64,000 bases of DNA from positions 1 to 64,000 of the IMG/VR virus record IMGVR_UViG_3300031998_000045, one strand, 5' to 3'. Shown here one piece after another: positions 20,033 through 38,396 of this stretch (positions within the stretch are counted from its first letter, which is position 1; each line of letters begins with the position of its first letter). A program made the translations under genes and the position numbers. The notes under the pieces are model-generated. The model saw nothing but the letters and a program-made list of their open reading frames with translations, ran no database searches and had not been told where the DNA came from. This DNA comes from a virus. Its lineage: Duplodnaviria; Caudoviricetes.

Positions 20033-20043
20033 ATATGCTTGAC

Positions 20044-20097
20044 AAGACGCATGTTTGGTGATTTTGCAGATCATTTAAGTTTTGCTGTATGCGTCTT
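20044..20097 (-). ncRNA. Scaffold RNA E1 displaying a Cys(GCA)-like anticodon loop
   Basis: AAGACGCAT-ACAGCAA...TGAT-CTGCAAA-ATCA-CCAAAC-ATGCGTCTT. Confidence 0.75.
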
Positions 20098-20102
20098 AGA
20101 AT

Positions 20103-20178
20103 TGGTAGGAGCGGTGGTAGTTGCAACCACGACTTCCAACTTATAAGGATGGCATTCTAACTGCTGAATTACGCTCCT
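20103..20178 (-). tRNA. tRNA-Ile(UAU)
   Basis: Acceptor AGGAGCG/CGCTCCT plus ACCA; loop CT-TAT-AA; variant T-loop TGCAACT. Confidence 0.8.
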
Positions 20179-20209
20179 AGTTATATATTTTACTATATTG
20201 ACAGAAAAT

Positions 20210-20935
20210 CTAAACAGCTGAGTTCAGGAAGTCAGCAACTATCTCACTTCTCTTCTGCTGTATTCTGTCTAGAGACTCTCTGTACTTCTTTCCAATGTCA
20301 TTGCAGATGTCTTCACACTCTTTGCTCAGTCTTTCAATTGCTTCATCTCTCTTCTTATGAGCCGCTATCAAGTCATTGTCCATCTTAGTCTTCAAGCTAA
20401 CAAGCTCTTTCTCACACGCATCTACAAGCTCAGCTGTCACAATGTCAAATGGAGCACCTGCCATCTTCTTGATGTACTCTTCTGAGTAAACAGTCTCAAG
20501 CATCTTCTTGTTGTCCGTCAGCATGTCTTTCCACAGCATCAAGAATTTCACAGGAACATTAGCATATCTACCCAAGCTTCTAAGCGTGAGCACTTGGCTG
20601 GTGTTGCGAAGTATGATGCTGTCTTCATCATATACTGCATTGAACTGCTTGAACAGACTGTCAATCCTGCTTGCAAAGAACTTCTTAACTGTGCTTTCAC
20701 GTTCATTGATGGAAAGACTGGGATGGACATAGCATTTTATGACAGTCTCTCCATAGAAGCTTTGGACAATGGACATGCGTCTGATGTCTATTGCATAAAA
20801 GAACTCCATTGAAGAGAATATAGTGTCTCCATAGTGCTTGGTCATTGTCAAAAAAGCATCTATGGCTGCAAATGCTTCTGGCGTGAACAGTCCAGTCTTG
20901 AATGAATATTCCTTCATGATTACCGCATTGTTCAT
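20210..20935 (-). CDS. TGLY/coiled-coil paralog family member 1
   Basis: N-terminal KTGLFT; GAPFDIVTAE followed by a coiled coil. Confidence 0.75.
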   Translation of the reverse strand: MNNAVIMKEYSFKTGLFTPEAFAAIDAFLTMTKHYGDTIFSSMEFFYAIDIRRMSIVQSFYGETVIKCYVHPSLSINERESTVKKFFASRIDSLFKQFNAVYDEDSIILRNTSQVLTLRSLGRYANVPVKFLMLWKDMLTDNKKMLETVYSEEYIKKMAGAPFDIVTAELVDACEKELVSLKTKMDNDLIAAHKKRDEAIERLSKECEDICNDIGKKYRESLDRIQQKRSEIVADFLNSAV

Positions 20936-21573
20936 CCAATCTCTCCATTCTCTGCTTTGCTCAGCATCTCTTTGATCTCGTTGCGCTTCTTTCTGAAGTC
21001 ATGCTTGACAGACTCTTGGGCTTCACTCCACTTCTTGTGGAGTGCTTCTGTCTCTGCATTCTCTTTCTCAACAAGCTCATCTAAAGCTTTATGCTCATCT
21101 TCTGCAAGCTTCTTCAGCTCTTCTTGGCAAACTTCAATCAGCTCCACTGTCACAGTGTCTCTCTTAGCTCCCATTAGTATGTCAAGCCATCCTTCTGGAT
21201 AAGACTGCTTCATGCTGTCTAGACTGTTGTCTAAGACATCATAGAGAGCTAGCATGAACTCAGACGGTAGAGCATGCGGACCGTCAGACAGAAAGAACTC
21301 GACAGGAATTCGGCTGTTTCTTGAGTCTGGATCATCAGGATCAATGCCGCTCTTCTCAAGCAAGTATCTGATCACTGTCTTGATGAATCCAGCAATGTTG
21401 TCATCTTTGACAGAGAAAAGCAATGCAACTTTGAACGACACCTCGCCATCTGGCTCACGGTCTGGAACAAGCGTGATGTTTGTGTTCTTAGCTTGGTTCA
21501 AGATCAGACACATCTCATTTACAAGCTCATAAGCAAGACCGCTGTGCATCTGAGTGTAGACTTTCTTTGTCAT
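20932..21573 (-). CDS. TGLY/coiled-coil paralog family member 2
   Basis: HSGLAY; GAKRDTVTVE followed by a coiled coil. Confidence 0.7.
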   Translation of the reverse strand: MTKKVYTQMHSGLAYELVNEMCLILNQAKNTNITLVPDREPDGEVSFKVALLFSVKDDNIAGFIKTVIRYLLEKSGIDPDDPDSRNSRIPVEFFLSDGPHALPSEFMLALYDVLDNSLDSMKQSYPEGWLDILMGAKRDTVTVELIEVCQEELKKLAEDEHKALDELVEKENAETEALHKKWSEAQESVKHDFRKKRNEIKEMLSKAENGEIG

Positions 21574-21731
21574 AGATGTTCTCCCTTCTGGCATAGATTA
21601 TATCAAAAACCAGACGGTTCAGCCACTTAAGAAAATGAAAAAGGCGTCCGCGGCAAGGAGAAAAATCCGCAGACGCCAGGCAAGCCCACGAAAGGAAAAG
21701 CTAAGCTTGCCATCAAATAAATTATACACTT

Positions 21732-22088
21732 TTATTTACAATCTTGTCGTCTGCATTTGCGAAGAGGCTTAGTCTCATGAGCATAGACTTCTTCTAGAAG
21801 CCGACATCCAGCTTGGCTTATTTCATAAGTGCATCTGCGTCCAGCATATATAGGGATTATCAAGCCCTTTTTAACCATAGCTGCATACATAGAGGAGCAC
21901 CATCCTCTAGATGAACGCCACAGTGGAAGTCCTAGAGCATTCCTAGAGATTTCGTCTCTAGAGCATGGACTATGATGGAAGACATACTTGAGCACTTTGA
22001 CATACTGGCTGTCCGGCTTGGGATGCGTGAAAGTGTATCCATTGTATGACATGCATTCACTATAGGCCACAATGCGGGTCATAGTCAT
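21732..22088 (-). CDS. Winged-helix-like protein, similar to 53975..54304
   Basis: TFTHPK..SQYVKVLKYV...GWCSSMYAAMVKKGLI...YEISQAG. Confidence 0.65.
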   Translation of the reverse strand: MTMTRIVAYSECMSYNGYTFTHPKPDSQYVKVLKYVFHHSPCSRDEISRNALGLPLWRSSRGWCSSMYAAMVKKGLIIPIYAGRRCTYEISQAGCRLLEEVYAHETKPLRKCRRQDCK

Positions 22089-22100
22089 TTCTCCTTTTGC

Positions 22101-22913
22101 TTAGACAAGCATGCTCTTTCCAGATCTGGCATTTGATATCAAAGACTTCAGATCATTCTTCTTCTTTGCAAACTTAGTTTTTGCAGCATCTAGCATTGTC
22201 TTGTACTTGACGTCAATTGAAGCTGTCCTGATCTGGAATTCTCTTTCAATTTCTTGCCTCAGTGCCTGGACTGCTTTCTTGTATTCATCTTTGATGCTCT
22301 CAATGGTCTTTTCAGACTCAGCATCTAAAGCATCAAGCTCTTCATTTGCTGTCTTGACTGTCTCATATGCAATTGGATCAAGCTGCTCTCCGATGAATGT
22401 GCTTGCATATTTCTTTCCATAGATGCCTATAACATCTTTCTTCAAGAATAAGTCTGCGACAAACATCAAGTCTTTGACTTTGACCATGTATTTTTTCGGC
22501 TTGTCTTCATTCCATTTTCTGCCGATGTTTGGTGAACGAAATCCAATCAGTTTGATCTTGTCATCCATATGCGACTTCAGATTCTTAGAAAAGAGTGTCT
22601 TCAGGTAGTCGTAGATGCATCTGCCAAGCTGAGCAAGGATCTTCTCAAAAGACATGCCAGACATCTCTATAGCAGACCGCCATTCATTGTCAGTCCAGTT
22701 GAAGAATCTGTCTATGACAACTTCATTTGTTGAATGACGCTCAACAAACCCTCTGCTGTAAAGCCATTCTATGCAGCTCCAGACATCTTTTGACATGTCA
22801 ATGTCACATGTGCCAAGCTCTCCAGCCCAAGAGTAGTTGTCTACAAAAGCTTTGACAGCATTGTATGCTTTGTCTGTGTACAAGCCTGTATGTATCAATG
22901 TGCTGCTTAGCAT
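22101..22913 (-). CDS. TGLY/coiled-coil paralog family member 3
   Basis: IHTGLYT; GEQLDPIAYE followed by a coiled coil. Confidence 0.8.
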   Translation of the reverse strand: MLSSTLIHTGLYTDKAYNAVKAFVDNYSWAGELGTCDIDMSKDVWSCIEWLYSRGFVERHSTNEVVIDRFFNWTDNEWRSAIEMSGMSFEKILAQLGRCIYDYLKTLFSKNLKSHMDDKIKLIGFRSPNIGRKWNEDKPKKYMVKVKDLMFVADLFLKKDVIGIYGKKYASTFIGEQLDPIAYETVKTANEELDALDAESEKTIESIKDEYKKAVQALRQEIEREFQIRTASIDVKYKTMLDAAKTKFAKKKNDLKSLISNARSGKSMLV

Positions 22914-22974
22914 CTTCTTTTCTCCTTTACACTATAGATCTTATCAAAAGTCTACAATGTCAGCCATTTAAAGC

Positions 22975-23256
22975 TTATAAGTCTACAGCTGAAGATGTCA
23001 CTTTCTTGGCAACTTCTCTGTCCTTCGGCTCAAAGATGTCATCTAAGCCGTGGATGTTGTACTTTTTCAGAGCTTCCTTGAGCTTCTCAAGAGCACGCTT
23101 CTCAATCTTGTAGATGCCCATTGCTGACATCGGCTTTGCTTCAGACTTTTCATCCCAGAGAGCAAATGCCGTCTCTTCATATGTCAGTCTCTTGCCGTCT
23201 TTGTGCTTCTGCAATGCTTTCTTCTTCTTGCTTAGAAGCTCTTCTTTGTCTGCCAT
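22975..23256 (-). CDS. Stand-alone sigma70 region-4-like HTH protein
   Basis: LTYEETAFAL...MSAMGIYKIEKRALEKLKEAL matches the region 4.2 pattern. Confidence 0.7.
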   Translation of the reverse strand: MADKEELLSKKKKALQKHKDGKRLTYEETAFALWDEKSEAKPMSAMGIYKIEKRALEKLKEALKKYNIHGLDDIFEPKDREVAKKVTSSAVDL

Positions 23257-23347
23257 ATCTTTGTCCTTTCAGCTCAAATGCATCTAAGCTGCCTGGACAG
23301 CCCTTCTGGACTGCCCAGACAATGTATGGAATTCCTATGTGCTAGTC

Positions 23348-23599
23348 TTAGCGTCCGTGCCAGATATGTCCGTTCCAGTCATAGACATTCATCTTCTTCC
23401 AAGTGCCAGTGGTCTCATCATACCACTTCATCCAGCTCTGCTTGAAGGCAATCTTGACATGCCTAGCACCAGCAGGAATGACAATGGTCTTCCCCATAGC
23501 TCCGTCTCCATGGACAGGATACTTCAGAGGAGTATTTCCCATGTCGTACCAGTTGTAGCTGCTGTTGGTGATGCTCTTGGATGCGGTCTTGGTCTTCAT
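23348..23599 (-). CDS. Small Trp-rich hypothetical protein
   Basis: SD plus promoter repeat. Confidence 0.6.
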   Translation of the reverse strand: MKTKTASKSITNSSYNWYDMGNTPLKYPVHGDGAMGKTIVIPAGARHVKIAFKQSWMKWYDETTGTWKKMNVYDWNGHIWHGR

Positions 23600-23662
23600 C
23601 TTCTTTCTCCTTTGTGGTTGTCTACGTTGTAGATCATATCAAAAAGTCTGTGGTCTAGCCAC

Positions 23663-24442
23663 TCAAGACAGCTGCATTTTTTTAGACTTTGCTTGCCGTC
23701 TGAGCTTTGAAGCTTCAGCGATCTTGTTATGCCATTCATTTTTGACATGCACAATCTTGTCTTGCCACTTAGACTTCAGCTGTGTGAGCTCGTCAGTCAT
23801 CTGGTTCTCCATGTCGAACACAATGTCTTTTAGAGACTTCTTCATGCTTTTGATCTCTTCATCAAGAGACTTGACCATCTCATACTGGATGGGATTCAGT
23901 CCGACACCTATCATCTTGTCAACGTCTTTCTTGCTCCATCTAGAGAGGTCTTTGCCAGCTAAGATGTCATGCAGCAGCACAATGTCATATACATCCACTG
24001 TCTCTATCTTGTCATCTGCATAGTATCCAGCTGAGTTGATCACTCCACGGCATATCTCAATCTTCATGCCGCGCTTTAGAGCTTTTCTGCTAGTGAAGCA
24101 TTTAGAAAGCTGTGCATTGGTTCTCGTGTCCGGTCTTCTATGCTTAGCTGCATGAGCTTTGATGAACTTAGCAAAGTCTCTCAATGCAGTGCTAGAGCAT
24201 GTGCTGTTGAACACAGATGATTCATCACTCCATCTGGAAAGGAAAGCATTGAAGTTGGCAATAGCAATCTCACCCGTGTCAAGCTGTCTGACAACACCAT
24301 ATTTGACAATTTCTTGAACATGCCTAGAGAACTTGTCTATGAAGCTGGAACCTGATATTGCCTGTCCATCAATGTCTTTAGCATTGACAAAGATGTTCAG
24401 AAGCTTCTTTGCTTTAGTTGAGTACAAGCCTGTGCAGACCAT
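23663..24442 (-). CDS. TGLY/coiled-coil paralog family member 4
   Basis: VCTGLYS; GVGLNPIQYE followed by a coiled coil. Confidence 0.8.
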   Translation of the reverse strand: MVCTGLYSTKAKKLLNIFVNAKDIDGQAISGSSFIDKFSRHVQEIVKYGVVRQLDTGEIAIANFNAFLSRWSDESSVFNSTCSSTALRDFAKFIKAHAAKHRRPDTRTNAQLSKCFTSRKALKRGMKIEICRGVINSAGYYADDKIETVDVYDIVLLHDILAGKDLSRWSKKDVDKMIGVGLNPIQYEMVKSLDEEIKSMKKSLKDIVFDMENQMTDELTQLKSKWQDKIVHVKNEWHNKIAEASKLRRQAKSKKMQLS

Positions 24443-24495
24443 GTTTTTTCTCCTTTGCATTATAGATTGTATCAAAAGCTCGGTGGTTCAGCCAC

Positions 24496-25194
24496 TCAAG
24501 CTGCGCAGAAGTTCTTCTTGGCAGACCGGATGTCTTCAATCATCTTCTCAAGCTTCTCGACTTCTGCTTCATTGTCAGCAATGATCTGCCGCTTGCGCTC
24601 TTCATGAGCCTTCTCTTCAGCTGCAAAGTCATCATCAAGCTTGCTCTTGAGACGCGCAATCTCTTCTCTCAAAGTCCGCAGAGACTCATAGCAGACTGGA
24701 TCAAGCGGGATTCCCTTGACTTTTTCAACAAGCTTCTTTGAGATTCCCTTCGGCATGCTATTTCCAGCAAGAAGATTTGCAGTGCAGACAAAGTCTCTAG
24801 CTTTGATCTTGACTTCAAGCTCTTCACCAGGTTCACATCTGTCATCATCAAACACGTTCAAGACTAGCTTCTCATCTAAGCATCCGCTGAGAGGGCGCTT
24901 GAACTTTCTGCACTGTATGCTTGCGAATTGAAGCATCTTCTTGCCGAACTCTTTGAGAATCTCAGTCTGAGACATGCCGCTTTCTTCAATGGCTTCTATG
25001 AAATTGTCATTACTGATGTGTTTGAACGGAACAAAGACAACTTCGTTTGAGTCATCTTGCACAACAATGCTATAGTTGTTGATGTCATCAATTTCGTCAA
25101 GTGAGCTGTTTTCGATAACAGTATTGTCTGAGAAAGCTTTAAGGCAAGTGCATGCAATCTTTGAATAGAGTCCTGTCCGTATCTGTGGTGTCAT
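24496..25194 (-). CDS. TGLY/coiled-coil paralog family member 5
   Basis: IRTGLYS; GIPLDPVCYE followed by a coiled coil. Confidence 0.8.
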   Translation of the reverse strand: MTPQIRTGLYSKIACTCLKAFSDNTVIENSSLDEIDDINNYSIVVQDDSNEVVFVPFKHISNDNFIEAIEESGMSQTEILKEFGKKMLQFASIQCRKFKRPLSGCLDEKLVLNVFDDDRCEPGEELEVKIKARDFVCTANLLAGNSMPKGISKKLVEKVKGIPLDPVCYESLRTLREEIARLKSKLDDDFAAEEKAHEERKRQIIADNEAEVEKLEKMIEDIRSAKKNFCAA

Positions 25195-25233
25195 CTTCTT
25201 TTCTCCTTTGCACTATAGATTGTATCAAAAGAT

Positions 25234-26052
25234 CTATGCTTCAGCCACTTGAAGTCTAGCAGCTTCTCTAGCAGCATTGAACCTCTTCACAAGATCTTTG
25301 TTCAGCTCTCTGCGCTTGACCACAAAAGCTTCATGGATGGCATTCTCGGCTTTGTCAATCTCTTCATCTTCTTGACGGTTGAGCTCTCTTTTTCTGTTGA
25401 GAAGATCGTCTATGGCATCTATGATCTCATCTTCAACAGCCTTCAGCACCTCATATCTGACTGGATCATTTGGTTCGCCTGTGAAGCTTTCTATGTAAGC
25501 TTCTGGAAACTTCTCAAGCTCAGCAGTCTTGTTTAGGAGCTTAGCCCAGATGAAGTAAGCATCTTTCAAAGACACTCTGACATTCTCAAGCTTGCATTCT
25601 TCATAGTCATCGTCATCATCGTCATCATCGTCCATGTACTGCAGCGGGTCTAGATGCAAACGGACTCTGTAGTATGAGCCTTTGTCCTTGAAAGACTTTC
25701 TGCTGTCATGCCGCCATTCTTCAGGAGAGCATTTTTTCAGAATGCCTGACTTGAATGCTCTAGCAATGCAGCATAAGATCTGCTTGTCAGACAAGCCGTG
25801 GAGCCTCTCTTCAAAGATATTTTCAAAGTAGTGTACATTAATAGCATTCTCAGAGTTGCCGATGACAACTTCGCCTGAAGGGTCTCTGTAGACTGAGGAA
25901 TACACGTTGATAGCCATACGGATGTTCTCTCCATTCTTTGTCTTGGGAAACCTGCAGCAGCAGACAGCAAGCACTTTCTTGACAAGCTCAACTGCTCTGT
26001 CTGTGTACAATCCTGTGCGGATGGCTCGGCGGGGGATGCTTTTGTAAGACAT
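25234..26052 (-). CDS. TGLY/coiled-coil paralog family member 6
   Basis: IRTGLYT; GEPNDPVRYE followed by a coiled coil; internal poly-Asp run. Confidence 0.8.
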   Translation of the reverse strand: MSYKSIPRRAIRTGLYTDRAVELVKKVLAVCCCRFPKTKNGENIRMAINVYSSVYRDPSGEVVIGNSENAINVHYFENIFEERLHGLSDKQILCCIARAFKSGILKKCSPEEWRHDSRKSFKDKGSYYRVRLHLDPLQYMDDDDDDDDDYEECKLENVRVSLKDAYFIWAKLLNKTAELEKFPEAYIESFTGEPNDPVRYEVLKAVEDEIIDAIDDLLNRKRELNRQEDEEIDKAENAIHEAFVVKRRELNKDLVKRFNAAREAARLQVAEA

Positions 26053-26122
26053 AGTTTTCTCCTTTGCACTATAGACTATATCAAAAGCCAGACACTTCAG
26101 CCACTCAAGACTTCAAGTTTTT

Positions 26123-26956
26123 TCATGACAGACTTACAAGATGCTGGTAAGATAGCTTTCTGCCTCTCAACTTGCTGATCTCAGCATCTATCTCGGCAAG
26201 ATGCTTAGCATATTCATTGCGGATCATGTCTATTGCGGCAGCATGCTCATTTTCTATAGCATGCACTTTTTCATCATATTCAAGCTGAGCAGCATTGATC
26301 TTGGCAGCACGAGCATTTCTAGCCTCTTCAACTAAGGCATCAAACTTGCTCTTGAGAGCTGCTTTTTCGCGGTCTAGTGAAAGAATTGCTTCAACAGCAA
26401 TGAAGTTGTTCGGCTTGCCGACTATTGAGTCCACAAGCTTGCGGTCGTATTTTGACATGTCTGCATTCATCAAGAAGTCAGCTACGACATTTGCATCAGC
26501 AATCTTCACTTTGCATTCATGGCTAGGGTTGTCATAGACAGAGACTTCTGTTCCAACTGCATAGCTGTATGCTTTGAACTTCAGATCTGTCGTCTTCTTG
26601 CCGCACATAGCTTTTATCAATTCTCCAATAATATGGCATACGTCATTGGCATCTATTCCCTCAATTTCTAGATCATCTATAAGATCATCATATTCAGGCT
26701 CAAACGGACCGATCAAGATCTCATTTGTGCTTTGGTCAATGCATGCACATCCTTTGACAAGTATTGGATCAGCTTTCTTCATGACTTTTGCCGTCTTCTT
26801 GTTGAAGACTTTCTCAACATTACCACGTTCATTTTCAACCAGCTCTTCAGCATTCATGATCTTTCTAAGCACATCAAATGCTCTGCTAGAATAGAGCCCG
26901 GTATGGATGACTTGCTGGCACTTGACAATCTCTGTTGTCTTTTCTTTCATCTTCAT
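26123..26956 (-). CDS. TGLY/coiled-coil paralog family member 7
   Basis: IHTGLYS; GKPNNFIAVE followed by a coiled coil. Confidence 0.8.
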   Translation of the reverse strand: MKMKEKTTEIVKCQQVIHTGLYSSRAFDVLRKIMNAEELVENERGNVEKVFNKKTAKVMKKADPILVKGCACIDQSTNEILIGPFEPEYDDLIDDLEIEGIDANDVCHIIGELIKAMCGKKTTDLKFKAYSYAVGTEVSVYDNPSHECKVKIADANVVADFLMNADMSKYDRKLVDSIVGKPNNFIAVEAILSLDREKAALKSKFDALVEEARNARAAKINAAQLEYDEKVHAIENEHAAAIDMIRNEYAKHLAEIDAEISKLRGRKLSYQHLVSLS

Positions 26957-27029
26957 TCTCCTTTATTGCTGCTGCACTATAGATTGTATCAAAAGCCCAG
27001 TGGTTCAGCCATTCAAGACAAAAGAAAAA

Positions 27030-27056
27030 GTCCAGCTTTGAAGCTGGACTTAGTCT
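27030..27056 (-). terminator. Intrinsic terminator ending the RNA-cluster transcript
   Basis: AGTCCAGC-TTCAAA-GCTGGACT hairpin followed by TTTTCTTT on the - strand. Confidence 0.7.
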
Positions 27057-27067
27057 TAGTCTAAAGC

Positions 27068-27121
27068 AAGACACGTGTGTTTGGTGATTTTCAAGATCAA
27101 TAAGTCTGCTGCAAGTGTCTT
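27068..27121 (-). ncRNA. Scaffold RNA E2 displaying a Ser(UGA)-like anticodon loop
   Basis: AAGACAC-TTGCAGCAG...TGAT-CTTGAAA-ATCA-CCAAACACAC-GTGTCTT. Confidence 0.75.
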
Positions 27122-27128
27122 AAAGGCC

Positions 27129-27229
27129 GAGTGTTTTTCATGTGCCGGCTCCATCACAGAGACTGTGCTTGCGGAGACACCCGACAGAAGATGAGCTCAA
27201 CACTGCGCGCCAGTGGAACTCCCACACTC
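27129..27229 (-). ncRNA. Unassigned three-way-junction structured RNA
   Basis: Closing GAGTGT/ACACTC; hairpin GAGTTC-CACTG/CAGTG-GAGCTC; hairpin TGTCGG-CTCC-CACAG/CTGTG-GGAG-CCGGCA. Confidence 0.5.
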
Positions 27230-27289
27230 AAACTTCCTGCAAGATTCAATTAAAGGAAAAACAAAAATGAAAAATGAAAGTGATGTTGC

Positions 27290-27443
27290 TAGCCGATGTG
27301 ATGTGAATATGGTGAGCCGCATTGTGGAACCCAGCACTTTGTTGCTAGATGAGATACGCTCATCAGCTTATCGTGCCAGCTAGATGCTTCAAGCACGGCT
27401 CTTACCTGAAGCCATTTCTCTCTGTACGCGTCTAGAGGAAATT
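27290..27443 (-). ncRNA. Possible multi-hairpin ncRNA
   Basis: Consecutive hairpins (GGCT/AGCC, GTGC/GCAC, GATGAG/CTCATC) in non-coding DNA within the RNA operon. Confidence 0.35.
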
Positions 27444-27446
27444 GAC

Positions 27447-27496
27447 AAGACTCATTTTGTTTCATTCCGTAAATGATAGTCTGCTGCATGAGTCTT
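27447..27496 (-). ncRNA. Scaffold RNA E3 displaying an Arg(ACG)-like anticodon loop
   Basis: AAGACTCAT-GCAGCAG...TCAT-TTACGGA-ATGA-AACAAA-ATGAGTCTT. Confidence 0.75.
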
Positions 27497-28544
27497 AAAA
27501 TGATGTAAATTCAAATTCTTCATAAAACTATTTATTTTTGTTCAACTATACAAAATCATAAAAACGATTAAAATGTTTTTGAACATATATATCTTGCTTG
27601 CATGGTTTTGGAGACAACTAATCTTTAATAATATATAATGACCAGCCAGCTTTTAGTATCTCATTTCGTTTTATATTATCCCTATTCTAAATAGCTTTCA
27701 ATGATGATCGTCTATCATTTGATATCTATTTATAATGCCATGGACCATTCCATTGTATAGCAATTTTTTCATCTACTATTAAAACATCCACATCCCATCC
27801 ATTAAAAATAGGACTATTATGCTCAACATGTTTAAATGATGATTTGCATAAGTTATAAAATTTTATTTCACATTTTGATCGTCTTTGTTCATTCTATTTT
27901 GCAATTGATCGTCTTCCAGCCAAAGAAAGCTTCTATTTAGTTTCCTATGACATAAATTCATTTCGATGTGTTTTTACATACTATTTGCATTCAAATGAGC
28001 AACAACTGCTTTTATCAACATCTAAAAACCATTTTTTACATTTTATACATTGTTTAAATCTATAGACTTTATTCTAAGAACGAGCATTCATATGACTTTT
28101 TATTTTAACAACAATATATTTTTTATTAGTTGTTTGTTGTTTTTTAATTGTTTGTTGTTTTTTAAGTAACTATGGTTTATGTGAACGTCCTAATCCATTT
28201 GCGCAACTTCTTGAACAAAATCGTCTTATATATTTTTTACCTTTTAAAACTTTTTCATATTCATAATCTGTCAAATCTAACTGATACGGCTTTTTACAAA
28301 TAGGATTTTCACATATAAATGTACGTGGTTTTCGTGTTAATTCACGCTATATTTTTTCATGAGTAAGCTTTTCAGCATGTTTTCGATTCATTATTAAAGA
28401 ACCGCGTTTCTATGCTGCAATATTTGCTTCTCTTTTAGGATTGCATTTACATGTTCTCATATGCGCAGTTGCAATTCCTGCCATTCGAAATGAACCATCG
28501 GTTTCAAATTCTTTTCCACAATATTTACAATGTATTATTTTCAT
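27495..28544 (-). mobile_element. Free-standing Vsr/DUF559-like homing endonuclease gene with N-terminal Zn-finger repeats (349 aa, TAG=Gln)
   Basis: AT-rich ORF missing from the track; about 13 in-frame TAG and no TAA/TGA. CKYCGKEF, FCSRSCAN; C-terminal RSKCE...WDVDVLI..KIAIQWNGPWHY...RD..KR..I.KAGW. Confidence 0.85.
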
Positions 28545-28583
28545 ATTTTTTATTTACATTGTTAGCGGATATTTAAATCGAAT

Positions 28584-28663
28584 TGCGGACGGTCGAGTTG
28601 CACGACTAGGTTTCCCAGAAAGCGTATGAGACTTTCTACGCTGCTCCGCGTTGTTTCATCCGC
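28584..28663 (-). tRNA. tRNA-Met(CAU)-like, atypical D and T arms
   Basis: Acceptor GCGGATG/CGTCCGC; loop CT-CAT-AC; T-loop TGCAACT; no encoded CCA. Confidence 0.6.
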
Positions 28664-28689
28664 CATAAAATTCTTCAAAGACCAAATGC

Positions 28690-28748
28690 AAGACGCGTGT
28701 TGGGTTTAAGATTAACTGTCTTATCCAAGCAGCTGCTGTGTGCGTCTT
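28690..28748 (-). ncRNA. Scaffold RNA E4 displaying an Asn(GUU)-like anticodon loop
   Basis: AAGACGC-ACACAGCAG...TAAGA-CAGTTAA-TCTTA...GCGTCTT. Confidence 0.7.
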
Positions 28749-28819
28749 AAAGCTGGATGCTCATCGGCTTCCACCGCTTCACATATATTATTATACCGCA
28801 TTTGAAATGCAATTAAACT

Positions 28820-29527
28820 TCATGACATCAAAATGTATGTGTAGTCTTTTGTCACTTCAACAATAAATACATCATCTGATTTGACAGCATCATACATCAT
28901 TTTCATTCTTCGGCATAGGTCATCATACTCAGCTTTCTTTTTCTGAGTTAGATCTAGCTTAGTCTGCTCATTTTCATCCATGAAATCTTCCTCTTTGAAA
29001 AATTTGAATTTTATTCTATCTGGCTGATATGTAGAGACTATCATTCCAGCATTGATGATGATCTTCATCCATTCATTGAAATAGTCTCCATGCACATCAT
29101 ATTCACCAATCATCTGACGAGTGCCAACTAATTTAACAGTGTGGTCTTTCATTTTAGAAATTGGTCCGTATAACATGTCAAATTCATGGATCATTTCATG
29201 GCATATGACATTCACCATTGAAACCATAGAATCATATTTCACTTCTCTTATGATCTTTATCAAAGGAACTATTTTTCCTGTAGCATTGTCAACTTTGAAT
29301 CCAATTGCTCCCTTTGCAATTTCATTAGTTCTGTCAATTATGCGAATTTCAACATCAGTAATCAACTTTGACTCAAAGATGACTTCATTCACTATTTCAT
29401 ATATAGCTTTTAGATCAGCTTCATTTGCAGAATACTCTGATGCTTCATCAGACAGCTTAGATCCAAATCTGTCATAAAGAGCTTTTCTCAATGGAAAATC
29501 TGACAACTTTTCACTAATAGCATTCAT
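28820..29527 (-). CDS. SprT-like Zn metalloprotease
   Basis: ICHEMIHEF...YDVHGDYF (HExxH plus downstream HG..F). Confidence 0.8.
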   Translation of the reverse strand: MNAISEKLSDFPLRKALYDRFGSKLSDEASEYSANEADLKAIYEIVNEVIFESKLITDVEIRIIDRTNEIAKGAIGFKVDNATGKIVPLIKIIREVKYDSMVSMVNVICHEMIHEFDMLYGPISKMKDHTVKLVGTRQMIGEYDVHGDYFNEWMKIIINAGMIVSTYQPDRIKFKFFKEEDFMDENEQTKLDLTQKKKAEYDDLCRRMKMMYDAVKSDDVFIVEVTKDYTYILMS

Positions 29528-29550
29528 ATATAAAATATACTTCAAATGAA

Positions 29551-29912
29551 TGGACGTGGGGAGAGTCGAACTCCCGTCTTGCTCAGTCTTTCATGCACCT
29601 TGTTCACATGCTTATGCTCTGCTTAGTTTCTCTCTGCTGCAGCAAGAGCAATGACTCGCAGGAGATCTTGTGGAAATGACTGACCTCAAGCGCTTCCACA
29701 TCTTGAGGACGTTCCGCCAAGTGATGATGCAGCTTCCGGTACCAGCGGACGGTCTCCCAGAGCTGCAGGTTGTCTTACAGATCGCTTAGATCAAGCAGCC
29801 ATAGCGTAGTCATACTCGCCATTTAGTTGTTTGCTTGGTTTTGAAGTGGACTAAGCTCCACTGCATGCATAGACACACAATTGATTCTGCCAATCGATAC
29901 CGTGTCACGCCC
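29551..29912 (-). ncRNA. ssrA: tmRNA; tag peptide (A)GEYDYAMAA
   Basis: Acceptor GGGCGTG/CACGTCC-A with G3-U70; T-loop TTCGACT; resume context CTAAAT-GGC GAG TAT GAC TAC GCT ATG GCT GCT TGA. Confidence 0.93.
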
Positions 29913-29922
29913 TTGAAGTTGA

Positions 29923-29997
29923 TGGCGTCTCCAAGTGGAGTTGAACCACTCTTGCAAGTATGAAAAACTTGAGTCCTAGCCGATAGACGATGGAGAC
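29923..29997 (-). tRNA. tRNA-Glu(UUC)
   Basis: Cloverleaf; loop TT-TTC-AT; GCCA end. Confidence 0.9.
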
Positions 29998-30011
29998 ATC
30001 TTGAAATTGTC

Positions 30012-30087
30012 TGGTCACGGTGACAAGACTTGCACTTGCATGCCACTGCTTAAAAGGCAGTTGCTAACCTATTTTAGCTACACCGTG
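30012..30087 (-). tRNA. tRNA-Lys(UUU)
   Basis: Loop CT-TTT-AA; variant T-loop TGCAAGT; ACCA end. Confidence 0.85.
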
Positions 30088-30091
30088 AAAT

Positions 30092-30168
30092 TGGTACCAG
30101 TGATGGGATTCGAACCCATACTGAAGTGATTTTGAGTCACGTGCCTCCTGCCTTTGGGCTACACTGGC
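30092..30168 (-). tRNA. tRNA-Leu(CAA) with short variable loop
   Basis: Loop CT-CAA-AA; 5-nt variable region; TTCGAAT; ACCA end. Confidence 0.88.
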
Positions 30169-30174
30169 ATTGAC

Positions 30175-30234
30175 AAGACGCGTTTAGCTTGTATTCATTA
30201 TCAGTGAATTGCTTTAGATTGCTGTGTGCGTCTT
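30175..30234 (-). ncRNA. Scaffold RNA E5 displaying an Ile(GAU)-like anticodon loop
   Basis: AAGACGC-ACACAGCAA...AGC-A-ATTCA-CTGATAA-TGAAT-ACAA-GCT...GCGTCTT. Confidence 0.78.
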
Positions 30235-30244
30235 CAAGAAGAAA

Positions 30245-30319
30245 TGGAGCCCGCAGAGAATTCCGAGATCTCAACCTGCTGCTTACAAGGCAGCCGCTCT
30301 GCCGTTGAGCTATACGGGC
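30245..30319 (-). tRNA. tRNA-Thr(UGU)
   Basis: Loop CT-TGT-AA; irregular T-loop; CCA end. Confidence 0.82.
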
Positions 30320-30334
30320 GCTTCATTTGAAAAT

Positions 30335-30423
30335 CGGAGAGAGGAAGATTCGAACTTCCGGGCCACATAGCTGCAGCCAACTCCTTAGCAAGGAGCCTCT
30401 TTAGACCGCTCAGACATCTCTCC
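30335..30423 (-). tRNA. tRNA-Ser(GCU)
   Basis: Loop TT-GCT-AA; long variable arm; no encoded CCA. Confidence 0.9.
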
Positions 30424-30429
30424 AAGAAC

Positions 30430-30518
30430 TGGCGGATGCGAGAAGATTCGAACTTCTGTGCCCTTTCAGGCAAACGGTGTTCAAGACCGCCCCGTTATGA
30501 CCTCTTCGGTACGCATCC
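30430..30518 (-). tRNA. tRNA-Ser(UGA)
   Basis: Loop CT-TGA-AC; long variable arm; GCCA end. Confidence 0.9.
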
Positions 30519-30530
30519 AGTCAAAAGACT

Positions 30531-30650
30531 TGAAGCTAGGGATCCTCAGCGTATAGGCATGCCCGACGGGGATAACCGAGCTACGGCTACAAAGATTCCC
30601 TCCATGCTGTGGAGAACCCGTGCTGCTACCATGTTCAGCTGCTAGCTTCA
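30531..30650 (-). ncRNA. Unassigned ~120-nt rod-like structured RNA
   Basis: TGAAGCTAG/CTAGCTTCA closing stem; CAGC/GCTG and ACGGG/CCCGT inner stems; terminal hairpin with ACAGCA loop. Confidence 0.5.
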
Positions 30651-30659
30651 AAAATAGAC

Positions 30660-30723
30660 AAGACTCATTGTGCTTGTTCTCCGAATATGGTGGGGAATAA
30701 GCTGATGCTGCTGTTTGAGTCTT
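30660..30723 (-). ncRNA. Scaffold RNA E6 with an irregular payload hairpin (possibly CAU)
   Basis: AAGACTCA-AACAGCAG...GCTT...ACCATAT...AAGC-ACAA-TGAGTCTT. Confidence 0.65.
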
Positions 30724-30747
30724 AAAATATCAAAATGGGCAATTGAC

Positions 30748-31707
30748 TTAAATTCGTTTTTCAAAAATTTTCTCAAGCTATCTGACAACATTATTTTTAG
30801 GACGAATTCGTATTGTCATATAACCGTGCTTTAATGCAATTTCGTCTTTTTGTTTATCTCTACTATTTCCTTCAGAATGCCAGTATTCACCGTCAATTTC
30901 AATAAATAATTTCTCTGAAGGAATATAAAAATCAACAAATCGTTTCATTTCATTAAAGCAAAATTCTTTTTGATGCTCAAATATGATTTTATGCTCAGTC
31001 AACCAATCAAATGCAACCTGTTCAGGATATGTCATTTTCTTTTTATTGCCAGCAAGTTTCCTGTTTGGATGTTTTTCTGGATGATCATGATACAGCTATT
31101 TCTTCTTTTCAGATACTTCTTTACGTTTCTCTATTGTCCAATATTTTGAACAACATCTATTGACAATAGTACCATTAGCTATTTTAGTTTTCATTGTTTT
31201 TGAAACAGAAAGAGCATTTCTCATAATACGTTCATCTGTTTCTTTCGTCAAGCCTTTGTTCCAAGAAGTTCTTTTTTGAATCGGATGAATCTAATGATTA
31301 TGCTCAAACAACTAAGCTCTAGTTTCAAATATCAAGTTGCATTGTTTACATTGCCATGTTCCTCTTGGAGCTCTAGCTTTAAGATGTTGTTCATGAATAT
31401 TCATCTATTTTCTAGATCTTCTTTTTTTGCTTATCTCAGCAAAGTCATTCTACTAAGCAGAATAAGATCTTCTACATGAATCAGAGCAAAATCTTCCAGT
31501 TCCATAGCTTCCATCATGTTCTTTGTTGCATTTAGGATTTTCACATTTGAACATTCCATTTGGAAGTCTTCTAGCTTCTTTCTTCAAAAGATCATCTTTT
31601 TGCTTTTTTGACTTATATTGCTTATAACTTTTGCAAGTTCTTTTATGACCCTAAAGAGAACGGCCATTGTCAAATTCTTTTCCACATGTACATTTATAAA
31701 TTTTCAT
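30748..31707 (-). mobile_element. Free-standing Vsr/DUF559-like homing endonuclease gene with Zn fingers and NUMOD-like motif (319 aa, TAG=Gln)
   Basis: Track fragment MTYPEQ...VDFYIPSEKLFIEIDGEYWH extends to the ATG at 31707 across about 8 TAG. YKCTCGKEF, FCSDSC, WNKGLTKETDERI. Confidence 0.88.
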
Positions 31708-31748
31708 ATTCTTATTTACTCAAGTGCATTACCAAACTCATCTAAAAT

Positions 31749-31827
31749 TGGTCAGGGCGAGCCGTGCTGCCCGGCTACCTATGGGACCCAAACCCATCGT
31801 GCAGAAATGCTGCTATACCACGCCCTG
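31749..31827 (-). tRNA. tRNA-Pro(UGG), aberrant T-loop
   Basis: Acceptor CAGGGCG/CGCCCTG plus ACCA; loop TT-TGG-GT; T-loop GGCAGCA. Confidence 0.75.
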
Positions 31828-31838
31828 TAAAATAAAAG

Positions 31839-31953
31839 CAAGACACATTTTTACGTGCTCTACCAGCTGAGCTACGAGATCTAAGATCTCGGCAAGATTC
31901 GAACTTGCGACCCCGAGCTTACCAGGCTTGAAAATACTGCTGTGTGTGTCTTG
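31839..31953 (-). ncRNA. Scaffold RNA E7 containing a circularly permuted tRNA-Thr(GGU)
   Basis: Order: CAAGACACA-CACAGCAG, anticodon hairpin AGC-CTGGTAA-GCT, T arm GCAAG-TTCGAAT-CTTGC, acceptor CGAGATC-TTA-GATCTCG, D arm GCTC-AGCTGGTA-GAGC, TGTGTCTTG. Confidence 0.85.
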
Positions 31954-31960
31954 AAGAATC

Positions 31961-32050
31961 TTTGACTGCTGAAACCGCTCACTCATAAGTTTTCCGAGCC
32001 TCCTGTTAAGTAAGGCTCAGGTTGGATTCGAACCAATAGCAGCAGTCAAA
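31961..32050 (-). ncRNA. YrlA-like (Y-RNA-like) permuted tRNA mimic without an anticodon loop
   Basis: Terminal 11-bp stem TTTGACTGCTG/CAGCAGTCAAA encloses T arm (TTGG-TTCGAAT-CCAA), loop-closed acceptor stem (CTGAGCC/GGCTCGG) and a D-like arm. Confidence 0.7.
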
Positions 32051-32069
32051 AAATGAACAATGAAAATAA

Positions 32070-32154
32070 TGGTGGACCCGAAGAGAATCGAACTCTCACG
32101 CGAAACCGCACTGCTTGCAAAGCAGCTCCAATCACCACACTCTGACACGGGCCC
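32070..32154 (-). tRNA. tRNA-Ala(UGC) with an extra variable-arm hairpin
   Basis: GGGCCCG/CGGGTCC (G3-U70), A73, CCA; loop TT-TGC-AA; GCG-GTTT-CGC variable arm. Confidence 0.82.
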
Positions 32155-32170
32155 ATAAAGCCAATAAAAC

Positions 32171-32217
32171 TAGATGCCAATTTTATTCTACAGATACAAA
32201 CCTGCTGTAAGCATCTA
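32171..32217 (-). ncRNA. Scaffold RNA E8 displaying a Tyr(GUA)-like anticodon loop
   Basis: TAGATGC-TTACAGCAG...TAT-CTGTAGA-ATA...GCATCTA. Confidence 0.7.
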
Positions 32218-38275: not shown

Positions 38276-38396
38276 TGTATGCTTTGTTAGAACTGCTTAG
38301 AGAATTCAAGCAATGCTCATGCATTCGCCTGCTGCTGAGTCTAAGCTTCTCAGCTAGATTATATTATATCACATTTTCAGATAGCATAAACATCTG

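What the first reader, a model, noticed from the sequence alone, without database searches (positions are those of the whole stretch)
20044..32217. Family of eight scaffold RNAs, most displaying a different tRNA anticodon loop
Seen in sequence: eight non-coding elements on the - strand (20044, 27068, 27447, 28690, 30175, 30660, 31839, 32171) share a 7-9 bp terminal stem whose sequence covaries between copies (AAGACGCAT/ATGCGTCTT, AAGACTCAT/ATGAGTCTT, AAGACAC/GTGTCTT, TAGATGC/GCATCTA). Each has a conserved 5'-side bulge (A/G)CAGCA(A/G) and a payload hairpin. Seven payloads are 7-nt loops in anticodon register: CT-GCA-AA (Cys), CT-TGA-AA (Ser), TT-ACG-GA (Arg), CA-GTT-AA (Asn), CT-GAT-AA (Ile), CT-GGT-AA (Thr, in E7) and CT-GTA-GA (Tyr); E6 is irregular. 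Six of these seven anticodons are absent from the window's conventional tRNAs. Inference: a modular anticodon-display RNA family. It could act as decoys for host anticodon nucleases (PrrC/RloC/PARIS-type defence), sponges for synthetases or modification enzymes, or donor pieces for tRNA repair. I do not recognise it as a named Rfam family.
Basis: partly seen in the sequence, partly recalled or inferred. Interest (0 to 1): 0.95.

Follow-up and report, generated by a model that had tools for sequence, protein, structure and literature searches.

The report
Partner RNAs of phage Ro60-like protein
Eight small RNA genes in this large gut phage's tRNA cluster share a conserved 'handle' and mostly carry tRNA anticodon arms. 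Elsewhere the same handle sits right beside genes for a Ro60-shaped ring protein that this phage also encodes, so they are most likely that protein's partner RNAs, an RNA family I found in neither Rfam nor the papers searched.

Summary
All eight elements lie at the stated places on the - strand. Each has a 7-9 bp closing stem, (A/G)CAGCA(A/G) exactly 3 nt after the stem, and an unpaired G at the 3' end. E1, E2, E3 and E5 carry clean anticodon arms. E7 holds a whole circularly permuted tRNA-Thr(GGU). E4 (A33), E8 (3-bp stem) and E6 are irregular.

The handle is widespread. In 80 bacterial-genome loci chosen only for a DUF2828 gene, 117 of 151 handle elements lie on the gene's strand within 1 kb upstream. 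That zone is 7% of the search space. 35 of 39 handle-bearing viral records encode DUF2828.

The window's own DUF2828 protein (36400-37959) folds like Ro60, with a helical-repeat ring plus a vWA domain.

Best reading: these are Y-RNA-like partner RNAs of a Ro60-like protein, with tRNA parts as exchangeable payloads. Binding and function are untested. The anticodon-nuclease decoy idea stays open.

In E. coli phage Bas63 the homologous protein, gp130, is reported to counter the Ppl defence, and handle RNAs lie just downstream of its gene.

This scan has already found the same family in at least 19 other genomes.

The parts
20043..20097 (-). E1: handle AAGACGCAT/ATGCGTCTT+G with ACAGCAA. Payload is an anticodon-like arm TGAT-CTGCAAA-ATCA (GCA, Cys). 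It lies between tRNA-Ile(TAT) and tRNA-Arg(TCT).
   Evidence: (41.5 bits)
27067..27121 (-). E2: handle AAGACAC/GTGTCTT+G with GCAGCAG. Payload TGAT-CTTGAAA-ATCA (UGA, Ser). The payload matches E1's apart from two substitutions, both in the anticodon triplet (GCA vs TGA). A terminator-like hairpin follows at 27051-27028.
   Evidence: (38 bits)
27446..27496 (-). E3: handle AAGACTCAT/ATGAGTCTT+G with GCAGCAG. Payload TCAT-TTACGGA-ATGA (ACG, Arg).
   Evidence: (40.5 bits)
28689..28748 (-). E4: handle AAGACGC/GCGTCTT+G with ACAGCAG. Payload TAAGA-CAGTTAA-TCTTA (GTT register, Asn, but A at position 33).
   Evidence: 45.5 bits
30174..30234 (-). E5: handle AAGACGC/GCGTCTT+G with ACAGCAA. Payload ATTCA-CTGATAA-TGAAT (GAU, Ile). 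It lies between tRNA-Thr(TGT) and tRNA-Leu(CAA).
   Evidence: (48.1 bits)
30659..30723 (-). E6: handle AAGACTCA/TGAGTCTT+G with ACAGCAG. The payload is an irregular hairpin with no anticodon-like loop.
   Evidence: 33.5 bits
31839..31952 (-). E7: handle (C)AAGACAC/GTGTCTT(G) with ACAGCAG enclosing a circularly permuted tRNA-Thr(GGU). Order: anticodon arm, variable loop, T arm, acceptor stem closed by a TTA loop, D arm.
   Evidence: Rfam YrlA RF02553 matches the T arm, closed acceptor and D arm at 41.5 bits, E 1.8e-6, below the gathering score of 69
32170..32217 (-). E8: variant handle TAGATGC/GCATCTA+G with ACAGCAG. The payload is weak: TAT-CTGTAGA-ATA (GTA register, Tyr, 3-bp stem). TAGA-type handles are common beside DUF2828 genes elsewhere, for example in Veillonella.
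   Evidence: (34.2 bits)
36400..37959 (-). Gene for the proposed protein partner: 519 aa, Pfam DUF2828 + DUF7788, PHROG 850 'RNA-binding protein'. The predicted fold is a Ro60-like helical-repeat ring plus a vWA domain with DxSxS.
32314..32341 (-). Promoter-like site (TTAAGA-16 nt-TG-TATAAT) upstream of E8. It may be the start of the RNA-cluster transcript.
   Evidence: This is a consensus match only; the number of such sites in the region is no higher than in shuffles.
27028..27051 (-). Terminator-like hairpin (10 bp followed by a T run) directly after E2. It may be the end of the RNA-cluster transcript.
   Evidence: consensus match only

Best explanation
The eight elements are genes for small non-coding RNAs built as 'handle + payload'.

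The handle has three parts: a 7-9 bp stem formed by the RNA's two ends, the motif (A/G)CAGCA(A/G) on the 5' side 3 nt after the stem (presumed single-stranded), and an unpaired 3' G. I infer that the handle is the docking site for the phage's Ro60-like ring protein (DUF2828 + vWA, window 36400-37959). This mirrors how the closing stem and 5'-strand motif of Y RNAs dock onto Ro60.

The payload is exchangeable and mostly tRNA-derived. In this window it is five credible anticodon arms (Cys, Ser, Arg, Ile and, inside a whole permuted tRNA-like body, Thr), two doubtful arms (Asn register with A33; Tyr register on 3 bp) and one irregular hairpin.

I further infer, by analogy with Y RNAs, which tether or gate Ro60, that the payload brings a tRNA-recognising factor to the ring protein, or occupies that factor. 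Candidates are a host tRNA-cutting defence nuclease, a modification enzyme or an RNA repair or decay enzyme. If so, the set of RNAs gives one protein several tRNA-like faces.

The RNAs sit inside the tRNA/tmRNA cluster. They would probably be released from its transcripts when the flanking tRNAs are processed (inferred).

Shown here: the family, its handle, the payload classes, the gene linkage and the protein's fold. Not shown: expression, binding and function.
For: 1. Family and handle are real.
- The pattern AAGAC-N5-CAGCAR-N20-50-GTCTTG hit more than 111 viral contigs. 69 of 122 matches had complementary stem positions 6-7, against about 14% expected by chance.
- A scan that fixes no stem sequence (any 7-bp stem + 3 nt + RCAGCAR) gave 151 hits against 6-9 in shuffles for the bacterial loci, and 187 against 9-18 for the viral loci.
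- There were 65 different stem 7-mers in the bacterial loci and 96 in the viral loci. G-U pairs occur. 139 of 151 bacterial hits are followed by G.

2. Linkage to the protein gene.
- In 80 bacterial-genome loci chosen only for a DUF2828 relative, 117 of 151 elements lie on the gene's strand within 1 kb upstream. That zone is 7.0% of the search space.
- 49 of the 80 loci have such elements, in 1-8 tandem copies, a median of 84 nt from the gene start.
- 35 of those 49 loci have no tRNA gene. The link is therefore to the protein gene and not to tRNA clusters.
- No protein neighbour of the window's gene recurs in those loci beyond a single locus, so among the neighbours tested only the RNA recurs.
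- 35 of 39 handle-bearing viral records encode DUF2828, including 16 of 16 that are at least 90% complete. Only 699 of 50,697 phage records do.

3. The same handle lies beside the gene in unrelated cultured phages: Mycobacterium phage Archie, Listeria phage LMTA-57, Campylobacter phage F352, Salmonella phage Si3 and E. coli phage Bas63.

4. Protein fold. The AlphaFold model has pLDDT 85.9. The top 13 PDB matches are all Ro60/TROVE, over the full length, with E 2e-9 to 2e-5 and TM up to 0.60. They include Ro60 of Thermus phage phiLo. D313, S315, S317, T386 and D418 are invariant, as in a MIDAS site.

5. Bridge to known Y RNAs. The same handle encloses YrlA-like permuted tRNA bodies in E7 and in L040, L093, L087, L066 and L049.

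6. A relative (L206, DUF2828 69% identical) has a handle RNA with the same Cys-GCA loop on a different arm stem and a different handle stem.

7. Published context. Bas63 gp130 was called Ro60-like and a counter of the Ppl defence, and its authors guessed that some neighbouring 'tRNA genes' are Y RNAs (bioRxiv 10.1101/2024.10.10.617714). gp130 is the DUF2828 homologue.
Against:
- In this window the RNAs lie 4.2-18 kb from the DUF2828 gene, not beside it.
- The hairpin directly in the gene's leader (38295-38346) is not a family member.
- The handle motif differs from the GNCGAA/CGAA motif of known Y RNAs (PMC4201824, PMC12135203).
- The protein does not match Pfam TROVE or any PDB sequence. Both the protein and the RNA correspondences rest on shape and architecture.
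- Upstream same-strand position would also fit a cis-acting leader.
- 31 of the 80 DUF2828 loci gave no strict hit.
- Part of the viral co-occurrence may reflect shared ancestry of the contigs.
Confidence: 0.7

Rival explanations
1. Free-standing decoys or sponges. The anticodon arms act alone, soaking up host anticodon nucleases, synthetases or modification enzymes. The handle only stabilises the RNA and sets its ends, with no role for the Ro60-like protein.
For: Anticodon-like loops are strongly enriched. The commonest anticodons, UUU and GUU, belong to tRNAs that known anticodon nucleases cut (own knowledge: PrrC and PARIS cut Lys; colicin E5 cuts Asn and Tyr). E1 and E2 differ only in the anticodon. 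The window's RNAs are not next to the protein gene.
Against: This does not explain why the handle sequence and its spacing are conserved across unrelated phages. It does not explain why the elements sit directly upstream of DUF2828 genes in loci without tRNAs. About 60% of payloads have no anticodon-like loop.
Confidence: 0.12
2. Cis-acting transcript elements. The handles are processing or stability signals of tRNA-cluster transcripts, or autoregulatory leader sites on the DUF2828 mRNA, and are not separate trans-acting RNAs.
For: The position is typically 3-650 nt upstream of the gene on the same strand. In the window they are embedded between tRNAs. Autoregulation by leader binding would still involve the protein.
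Against: Tandem arrays of up to 8 copies occur. Copies also lie downstream of the gene and, in this window, kilobases away. Elaborate tRNA-like payloads are not expected of a processing signal.
Confidence: 0.1
3. Unusual decoding tRNAs. These are armless or permuted tRNAs that are matured, charged and used in translation by this TAG-recoded phage.
For: There are seven different sense anticodons, six of them missing from the window's tRNA set. A 7-bp end stem followed by a single unpaired base resembles an acceptor stem plus discriminator. E7 has every tRNA part.
Against: There are no D or T arms and no encoded CCA, whereas 8 of the window's 9 conventional tRNAs encode CCA. The same end-stem sequence is used for all anticodons, which conflicts with synthetase identity rules (own knowledge). 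E7's acceptor stem is closed by a 3-nt loop. Most family members carry no anticodon arm at all.
Confidence: 0.04
4. DNA-level repeats. These are miniature inverted-repeat elements, or recombination or homing-endonuclease target sites, spread through the tRNA cluster.
For: They have terminal inverted repeats. Two endonuclease-like ORFs lie between copies.
Against: Orientation relative to the neighbouring gene is strictly strand-specific. Stem sequences change while pairing is kept, and G-U pairs occur that would be A-C on the other strand. The asymmetric CAGCAR motif has fixed spacing. No target-site duplications were noted.
Confidence: 0.03

Closest known systems
Ro60 (Rsr) with Y RNAs in bacteria and phages: YrlA/YrlB (Rfam RF02553; Chen et al. 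2014, PMC4201824) and Yrl1/Yrl2 of Thermus phage phiLo (PMC12135203)
   Same: - A ring protein of helical repeats plus a vWA domain.
- Small RNAs encoded beside its gene, often several in a row.
- RNA ends paired into a closing stem with a short conserved motif on the 5' side.
- A variable module that often mimics tRNA. E7's module matches the YrlA model.
- In phage phiLo the Yrl RNAs also lie upstream of the Ro60 gene.
   Different: - The protein belongs to Pfam DUF2828/DUF7788, not TROVE. It has no sequence-level match to any Ro60.
- The handle motif is RCAGCAR at a fixed 3-nt distance from the stem, not GNCGAA/CGAA.
- Many payloads are bare anticodon arms, which YrlA-type RNAs lack.
- No member reaches the Rfam YrlA threshold.
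Bas63 gp130, a Ro60-like counter of the Ppl defence system (PhageMaP preprint, bioRxiv 10.1101/2024.10.10.617714)
   Same: It is the same protein family: 32% identity over 94% of the window's protein, locus tag bas63_0130. The gene lies next to a tRNA cluster. Its authors guessed that it has Y-RNA partners.
   Different: The preprint does not identify the RNAs. It suspects annotated tRNA genes, whereas the handle RNAs lie in the unannotated gaps between them. Ppl is not known to act on tRNA.
Phage tRNAs that evade or replace host tRNAs cut by defence nucleases (T5 tRNAs against PARIS and against retron Eco7; T4 against PrrC; own knowledge)
   Same: They are tRNA-derived phage RNAs within tRNA clusters, and anticodon identity matters.
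   Different: Those are complete, chargeable tRNAs. Seven of the eight elements here lack D and T arms, and none has an open acceptor end.
Circularly permuted tRNA genes of Cyanidioschyzon merolae and other algae and archaea (own knowledge)
   Same: E7 has the 3' half before the 5' half, with flanks that pair.
   Different: Those precursors are cut at a bulge-helix-bulge motif, circularised and matured into real tRNAs. E7 has no such motif. Its break lies between positions 26 and 27, and its topology is that of YrlA.

Membership tests
Y RNA, YrlA type (Rfam RF02553) | The RNA's 5' and 3' ends pair into a closing stem | tested here: met
   All eight fold with a 7-9 bp end stem. Across the family, pairing is kept through many different stem sequences.
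Y RNA, YrlA type (Rfam RF02553) | Conserved Ro-binding motif GNCGAAN0-1G (CGAA) near the 5' end (PMC4201824, PMC12135203) | tested here: not met
   The conserved motif is (A/G)CAGCA(A/G), 3 nt after the stem. There is no CGAA in the handles.
Y RNA, YrlA type (Rfam RF02553) | tRNA-like domain: T arm, acceptor stem closed by a loop, D arm | tested here: inconclusive
   Met by E7 only (model positions 24-84). E1-E6 and E8 lack it.
Y RNA, YrlA type (Rfam RF02553) | Score at or above Rfam's gathering threshold (69 bits) | tested here: not met
   E7 scores 41.5 bits. The others give no match at E<=10.
Y RNA, YrlA type (Rfam RF02553) | Encoded beside the gene of its Ro60 partner | tested here: met
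   Met for the family with the Ro60-like DUF2828 gene. In this window the RNAs lie 4.2-18 kb downstream on the same strand, not adjacent.
Y RNA, YrlA type (Rfam RF02553) | Physically bound by Ro60 | not testable with these tools
   Needs immunoprecipitation or a gel-shift assay. The complex predictor offered here takes no RNA.
Ro60 / TROVE protein (Pfam PF05731) | Match to the TROVE sequence model | tested here: not met
   Pfam gives only DUF2828 + DUF7788. There is no TROVE match anywhere in the 86.7-kb record and no PDB sequence match.
Ro60 / TROVE protein (Pfam PF05731) | Ring of helical repeats followed by a vWA domain | tested here: met
   The top 13 Foldseek PDB matches are all Ro60/TROVE over the full length, probability 1.00, TM 0.36-0.60, on a model with pLDDT 85.9.
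Ro60 / TROVE protein (Pfam PF05731) | MIDAS metal site (DxSxS ... T ... D) in the vWA domain | tested here: met
   D313, S315, S317, T386 and D418 are invariant in 32 aligned relatives. That these residues form the MIDAS site is inferred from the pattern.
tRNA (Rfam RF00005) | Cloverleaf with D and T arms, an open acceptor stem and a 3' CCA or discriminator | tested here: not met
   ARAGORN and Rfam call none of the eight. All end in GTCTTG (E8: ATCTAG) without CCA. E7's acceptor stem is closed by a TTA loop.
tRNA anticodon-arm mimic (descriptive class) | 7-nt loop with U33 and purine 37 on a stem of about 5 bp | tested here: inconclusive
   Met by E1, E2, E3 and E5, and by E7 with one mismatch. 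E4 has A33, E8 has a 3-bp stem, and E6 has no such loop.

The most novel reading that the evidence does not exclude
A programmable phage ribonucleoprotein. One Ro60-like ring protein is loaded with a set of handle RNAs whose tRNA-part payloads (anticodon arms of particular tRNAs, elbows, whole tRNA bodies) each capture a different host tRNA-recognising defence enzyme, or direct repair or decay of particular cleaved tRNAs. Swapping the anticodon, as between E1 and E2, would retarget the particle. This would be a general, RNA-encoded counter-defence module found across Felix O1-like, Listeria, Staphylococcus, Campylobacter and Mycobacterium phages and megaphages.
Probability: 0.25. Interest if true: 0.9.

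Novelty: new variant of a known kind. Interest (0 to 1): 0.75.

Why it matters
Ro60 with its Y RNAs is a long-studied but poorly understood RNA surveillance particle. A second, sequence-unrelated branch of it appears to be common. About 700 sequenced phages carry the protein, including workhorse phages of E. coli, Salmonella, Listeria, Staphylococcus, Campylobacter and Mycobacterium, as do many gut bacterial genomes.

I found this branch's partner RNAs neither in Rfam nor in the papers searched. They lie in gaps of tRNA clusters that annotation leaves empty or fills with doubtful small ORFs.

The payloads are tRNA parts, often anticodon arms, and the protein has been reported to defeat a bacterial defence in Bas63. 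The family therefore offers a concrete, testable route to what phage Ro-like particles do during infection, and to whether phages use RNA mimics of tRNA against tRNA-targeting immunity. It would also improve the annotation of phage tRNA clusters.

Tried and rejected
- Searching viral contigs with the neighbouring SprT-like 241-aa protein gave no relatives.
- A single-sequence fold of the DUF2828 protein was unusable, with pLDDT 40. The alignment-based fold replaced it.
- Sequence and profile searches of the PDB found nothing relevant.
- The hairpin at 38295-38346 (-), in the leader of the DUF2828 operon, looked like a ninth copy (GCTTAGA/TCTAAGC stem plus CAGCAG). Its spacing is wrong. In relative L206 the hairpin is conserved but CAGCAG is not (CAACAG), so I rejected it as a member.
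- The weak model hit at 35866-35910 lies inside a coding region, so I rejected it.
- Close relatives L204 and L205 (DUF2828 75% identical) have no tRNA cluster or handle RNA within 10 kb, so element-by-element orthologous comparison was possible only with L206.
- RtcB, RNA ligase and TROVE were not found in the 86.7-kb record. The record is about 30% of a genome, so this says little.
- I considered bulge-helix-bulge processing of a permuted tRNA for E7. I rejected it because the bulge is on one side only and the topology equals YrlA.
- I considered hammerhead, twister, hatchet, pistol and hairpin ribozymes. None gave an Rfam match on the eight elements at E<=10.

Full report
**Setting.** The window is the first 64 kb of an 86.7-kb IMG/VR virus record judged about 30% complete. 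Its only DNA-level phage match outside tRNA genes is to Prevotella phage Lak-C1. Several ORFs carry in-frame TAG codons. It is therefore a fragment of a large gut phage, apparently TAG-recoded. On the - strand between about 32.3 kb and 27.0 kb, and again near 20 kb, lies a dense RNA cluster. It holds nine conventional tRNAs, a tmRNA and the eight elements of the finding.

**Checking the observation.**
- Seven start AAGAC and end GTCTTG. E8 is TAGATGC...GCATCTAG.
- The inner stem pairs differ between copies yet stay complementary.
- (A/G)CAGCA(A/G) begins exactly 5 nt after AAGAC in all seven, and at the same distance in E8.
- Each folds with the end stem closed.
- A generic 'stem + CAGCAR' scan has a background of about 15 hits per shuffle of the 86.7-kb record. 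The eight are marked out by sharing one stem core and one fixed spacing, all on one strand, in two short stretches (20.0-20.1 kb and 27.0-32.2 kb).
- No further copy exists in the record.

Payloads:
- E1, E2, E3 and E5 have 7-nt loops with U33 and R37 on 4-5 bp stems.
- E7's loop CTGGTAA belongs to a complete circularly permuted tRNA-Thr(GGU). Its order is anticodon arm, variable loop, T arm, acceptor stem closed by TTA, then D arm.
- E4 has A at position 33, E8 has only a 3-bp stem, and E6 is irregular.
- E1 and E2 have the same arm and linker and differ by two bases in the anticodon.
- Of the seven anticodons, only UGA is shared with the window's ordinary tRNAs.

**Is it a known RNA family?** At Rfam gathering thresholds only tRNAs and the tmRNA are found. 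At E<=10, none of E1-E6 or E8 matches anything. The interior of E7 matches the tRNA-like core of YrlA, the bacterial Y RNA. The score is 41.5 bits against a threshold of 69, with E 1.8e-6, over model positions 24-84, which are the T arm, closed acceptor and D arm. I tested that lead.

**The family outside this window.** An exact pattern for the handle hit more than 111 viral contigs.
- 69 of 122 matches had complementary bases at stem positions 6-7, which the pattern does not fix. About 14% is expected by chance.
- A covariance model of the handle found 121 copies in 50 of these loci, commonly 2-4 in tandem.
- To avoid circularity I wrote a scan that fixes no stem sequence: any perfect 7-bp stem, 3 nt, RCAGCAR, closure within 125 nt. 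It gave 187 hits in the viral loci against 9-18 in shuffles.

**Payload classes.** The same handle encloses several kinds of payload:
- bare anticodon arms;
- YrlA-like permuted tRNA bodies (L040:6065, L093:5209, L087:3463, L066:166, L049:1821);
- ordinary-order tRNA-like bodies (L040:1316, L057:4722, L022:2228);
- lone T arms;
- unrelated AT-rich hairpins.

In L161 the arrangement is inverted: a tRNA-shaped RNA carries the hairpin-plus-CAGCAA module in its anticodon arm. Among 274 unique elements, 98 have an anticodon-like loop on a stem of at least 4 bp, against 19 (maximum 32) in shuffled payloads. 43 carry a T loop. UUU (Lys) is the commonest anticodon in the arm-only class, followed by GUU, UGA and GAA.

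**Link to the protein gene.**
- The window encodes a 519-aa DUF2828 + DUF7788 protein at 36400-37959 on the - strand.
- 35 of 39 handle-bearing viral records encode such a protein, including 16 of 16 that are at least 90% complete. Only 699 of 50,697 phage records do.
- In many records a handle RNA lies 25-130 nt upstream of the gene on the same strand.

The cleanest test used 80 bacterial-genome loci chosen only because they encode a DUF2828 relative.
- The model's hits pile up on the gene's strand just upstream.
- The stem-agnostic scan gave 151 elements against 6-9 in shuffles. 117 of them lie in the same-strand 1-kb upstream zone, which is 7.0% of the search space.
- 49 of the 80 loci have 1-8 copies there, a median of 84 nt from the start codon.
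- 35 of those 49 have no tRNA gene in the locus. The linkage is therefore to the protein gene and not to tRNA clusters.
- No protein neighbour of the window's gene recurs in more than one of these loci.

The handle also sits beside the gene in unrelated cultured phages: Mycobacterium phage Archie, Listeria phage LMTA-57, Campylobacter phage F352 (with a Ser-GCU arm), Salmonella phage Si3 and E. coli phage Bas63.

**What the protein is.**
- It has no sequence match to any solved structure or to Pfam TROVE.
- A model built from 32 relatives has pLDDT 85.9 and pTM 0.87.
- Its 13 best PDB matches are all Ro60/TROVE proteins, aligned over the full length. They include Xenopus and human Ro60, Deinococcus Rsr and Ro60 of Thermus phage phiLo, with E 2e-9 to 2e-5.
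- The vWA part keeps an invariant DxSxS...T...D pattern.
- PHROGs calls the family 'RNA-binding protein'. Some mycobacteriophage records call it 'Ro-like'.

**Interpretation.** Known Ro60 partners share three traits (PMC4201824; PMC12135203). They are encoded beside the Ro60 gene. They pair their ends into a stem carrying a short conserved 5'-side motif that Ro60 contacts. They carry a variable, often tRNA-like module.

The elements here have the same plan, with a different motif (RCAGCAR, not CGAA) and a protein of the same fold but a different sequence family. I therefore read them as Y-RNA-like partner RNAs of the DUF2828 protein, with confidence about 0.7. The gene linkage, the handle and the fold are shown. 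Binding is inferred.

What the particle does is open. Y RNAs tether or gate Ro60. Bacterial Ro60/YrlA operons respond to tRNA damage (title and abstract of PMC7790460, listed). Jumbo-phage genomics places canonical TROVE proteins among RNA-repair genes (PMC7824862). In phage Bas63 the homologous gp130 was reported to counter the Ppl defence, and its authors suspected Y RNAs among the neighbouring tRNA genes. I find the handle RNAs in the unannotated gaps of that cluster.

A role in counter-defence, with tRNA-part payloads engaging tRNA-recognising host factors, is thus plausible but untested.

**This window's particulars.**
- The RNAs are not adjacent to the gene. They lie 4.2-18 kb downstream on the same strand, interleaved with tRNAs. 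E1 lies between tRNA-Ile and tRNA-Arg, and E5 between tRNA-Thr and tRNA-Leu.
- A promoter-like site precedes E8 and a terminator-like hairpin follows E2. These are consensus matches only.
- Release by tRNA-processing enzymes is an inference.
- A relative with a 69% identical protein (L206) has a handle RNA with the same Cys-GCA loop on a different arm stem (TAGAA/TTCTA) and a different handle stem (AAGGCAT/ATGTCTT, with a G-U pair), next to its tmRNA. That fits selection on the structure and on the loop.

**Novelty.** I found no paper describing these RNAs in six literature searches and no Rfam family. The Ro60-like fold of the protein has been noted for Bas63 gp130, and canonical phage Ro60/Y RNA pairs are known. 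I class this as a new variant of a known kind. This scan has already reported the same handle family in at least 19 other genomes.

Noticed in passing
window 31961-32050 (-): A tRNA-like RNA without an anticodon arm, directly upstream of E7. It has an 11-bp closing stem (TTTGACTGCTG/CAGCAGTCAAA), a canonical T arm (TTGG-TTCGAAT-CCAA), an acceptor-like hairpin closed by a 13-nt loop and a D-like segment. This is YrlA topology with a different closing stem that itself contains CAGCAG. It has no significant Rfam match: only chance-level overlaps with unrelated families, and no YrlA or tRNA match at E<=10.
   Followed up: partly
window 31750-31830 (-) and about 28590-28670 (-): Two tRNA look-alikes. 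The first reads as Pro-UGG by my reading of the sequence and ends in CCA. Their D- and T-loop positions hold GCAGCA. Neither ARAGORN nor Rfam calls them.
   Followed up: no
window 30780-31706 (-) and 27560-28545 (-): Two AT-rich ORFs inside the RNA cluster. They have zinc-finger-like CxxC motifs and several in-frame TAG codons, and they look like endonucleases. The TAG codons suggest TAG is read as an amino acid in this phage.
   Followed up: no
window 30530-30651 (-): A 122-nt multi-hairpin RNA between E6 and tRNA-Ser. It is closed by GAAGCTAG/CTAGCTTC and has ACAGCAT in a hairpin loop. It has no Rfam match.
   Followed up: no
window 38295-38346 (-); L206:5715-5782: A conserved hairpin (GCTTAGA...TCTAAGC) just after a promoter-like TTGACA/TATAAT site, in the leader of the operon that holds a 98-aa ORF and the DUF2828 gene. 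It is conserved in a relative, but there it lacks CAGCAG. It is probably a separate leader structure.
   Followed up: yes
window 32070-32154 (-): An 85-nt tRNA with anticodon TGC (Ala) but a long variable arm, which is typical of Ser, Leu and Tyr tRNAs. Its identity is unclear.
   Followed up: no
window 29548-29912 (-): A phage-encoded tmRNA (95 bits) with tag peptide GEYDYAMAA. Relative L206 has one with tag GTTDYAMAA.
   Followed up: no
L022:3293-3916: A full-length ROOL RNA (292 bits) in a 240-kb phage contig, starting 17 nt after a handle RNA (L022:3181-3276) and inside a tRNA cluster.
   Followed up: no
L093:1222-1302; L040:2327-2377: Sub-threshold matches to the type-P1 twister ribozyme (41 bits against a gathering score of 67) inside tRNA clusters of two jumbo-phage contigs.
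   Followed up: no
L161:2523-2656 and 2251-2365: tRNA-shaped RNAs upstream of a DUF2828 gene in a Lachnospira MAG. Their anticodon arms carry long inserts. The 2523-2656 RNA carries a hairpin followed by GCACAGCAATTTT, which is the handle in circularly permuted form.
   Followed up: partly
L207:6333-6403 (Bas63, MZ501086.1 82693-82763): A weak handle-RNA hit (15.4 bits, E 0.05) overlaps the annotated 50-aa hypothetical CDS bas63_0137 on the opposite strand. That small CDS may be a mis-call.
   Followed up: no
window 38397-42551 (-): Upstream of the DUF2828 operon lie a metallophosphoesterase, a DUF2201 metallopeptidase-like + vWA protein and a MoxR-type AAA_5 ATPase. This gene order is kept in close relatives (L204-L206) but not in other DUF2828 loci.
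   Followed up: partly
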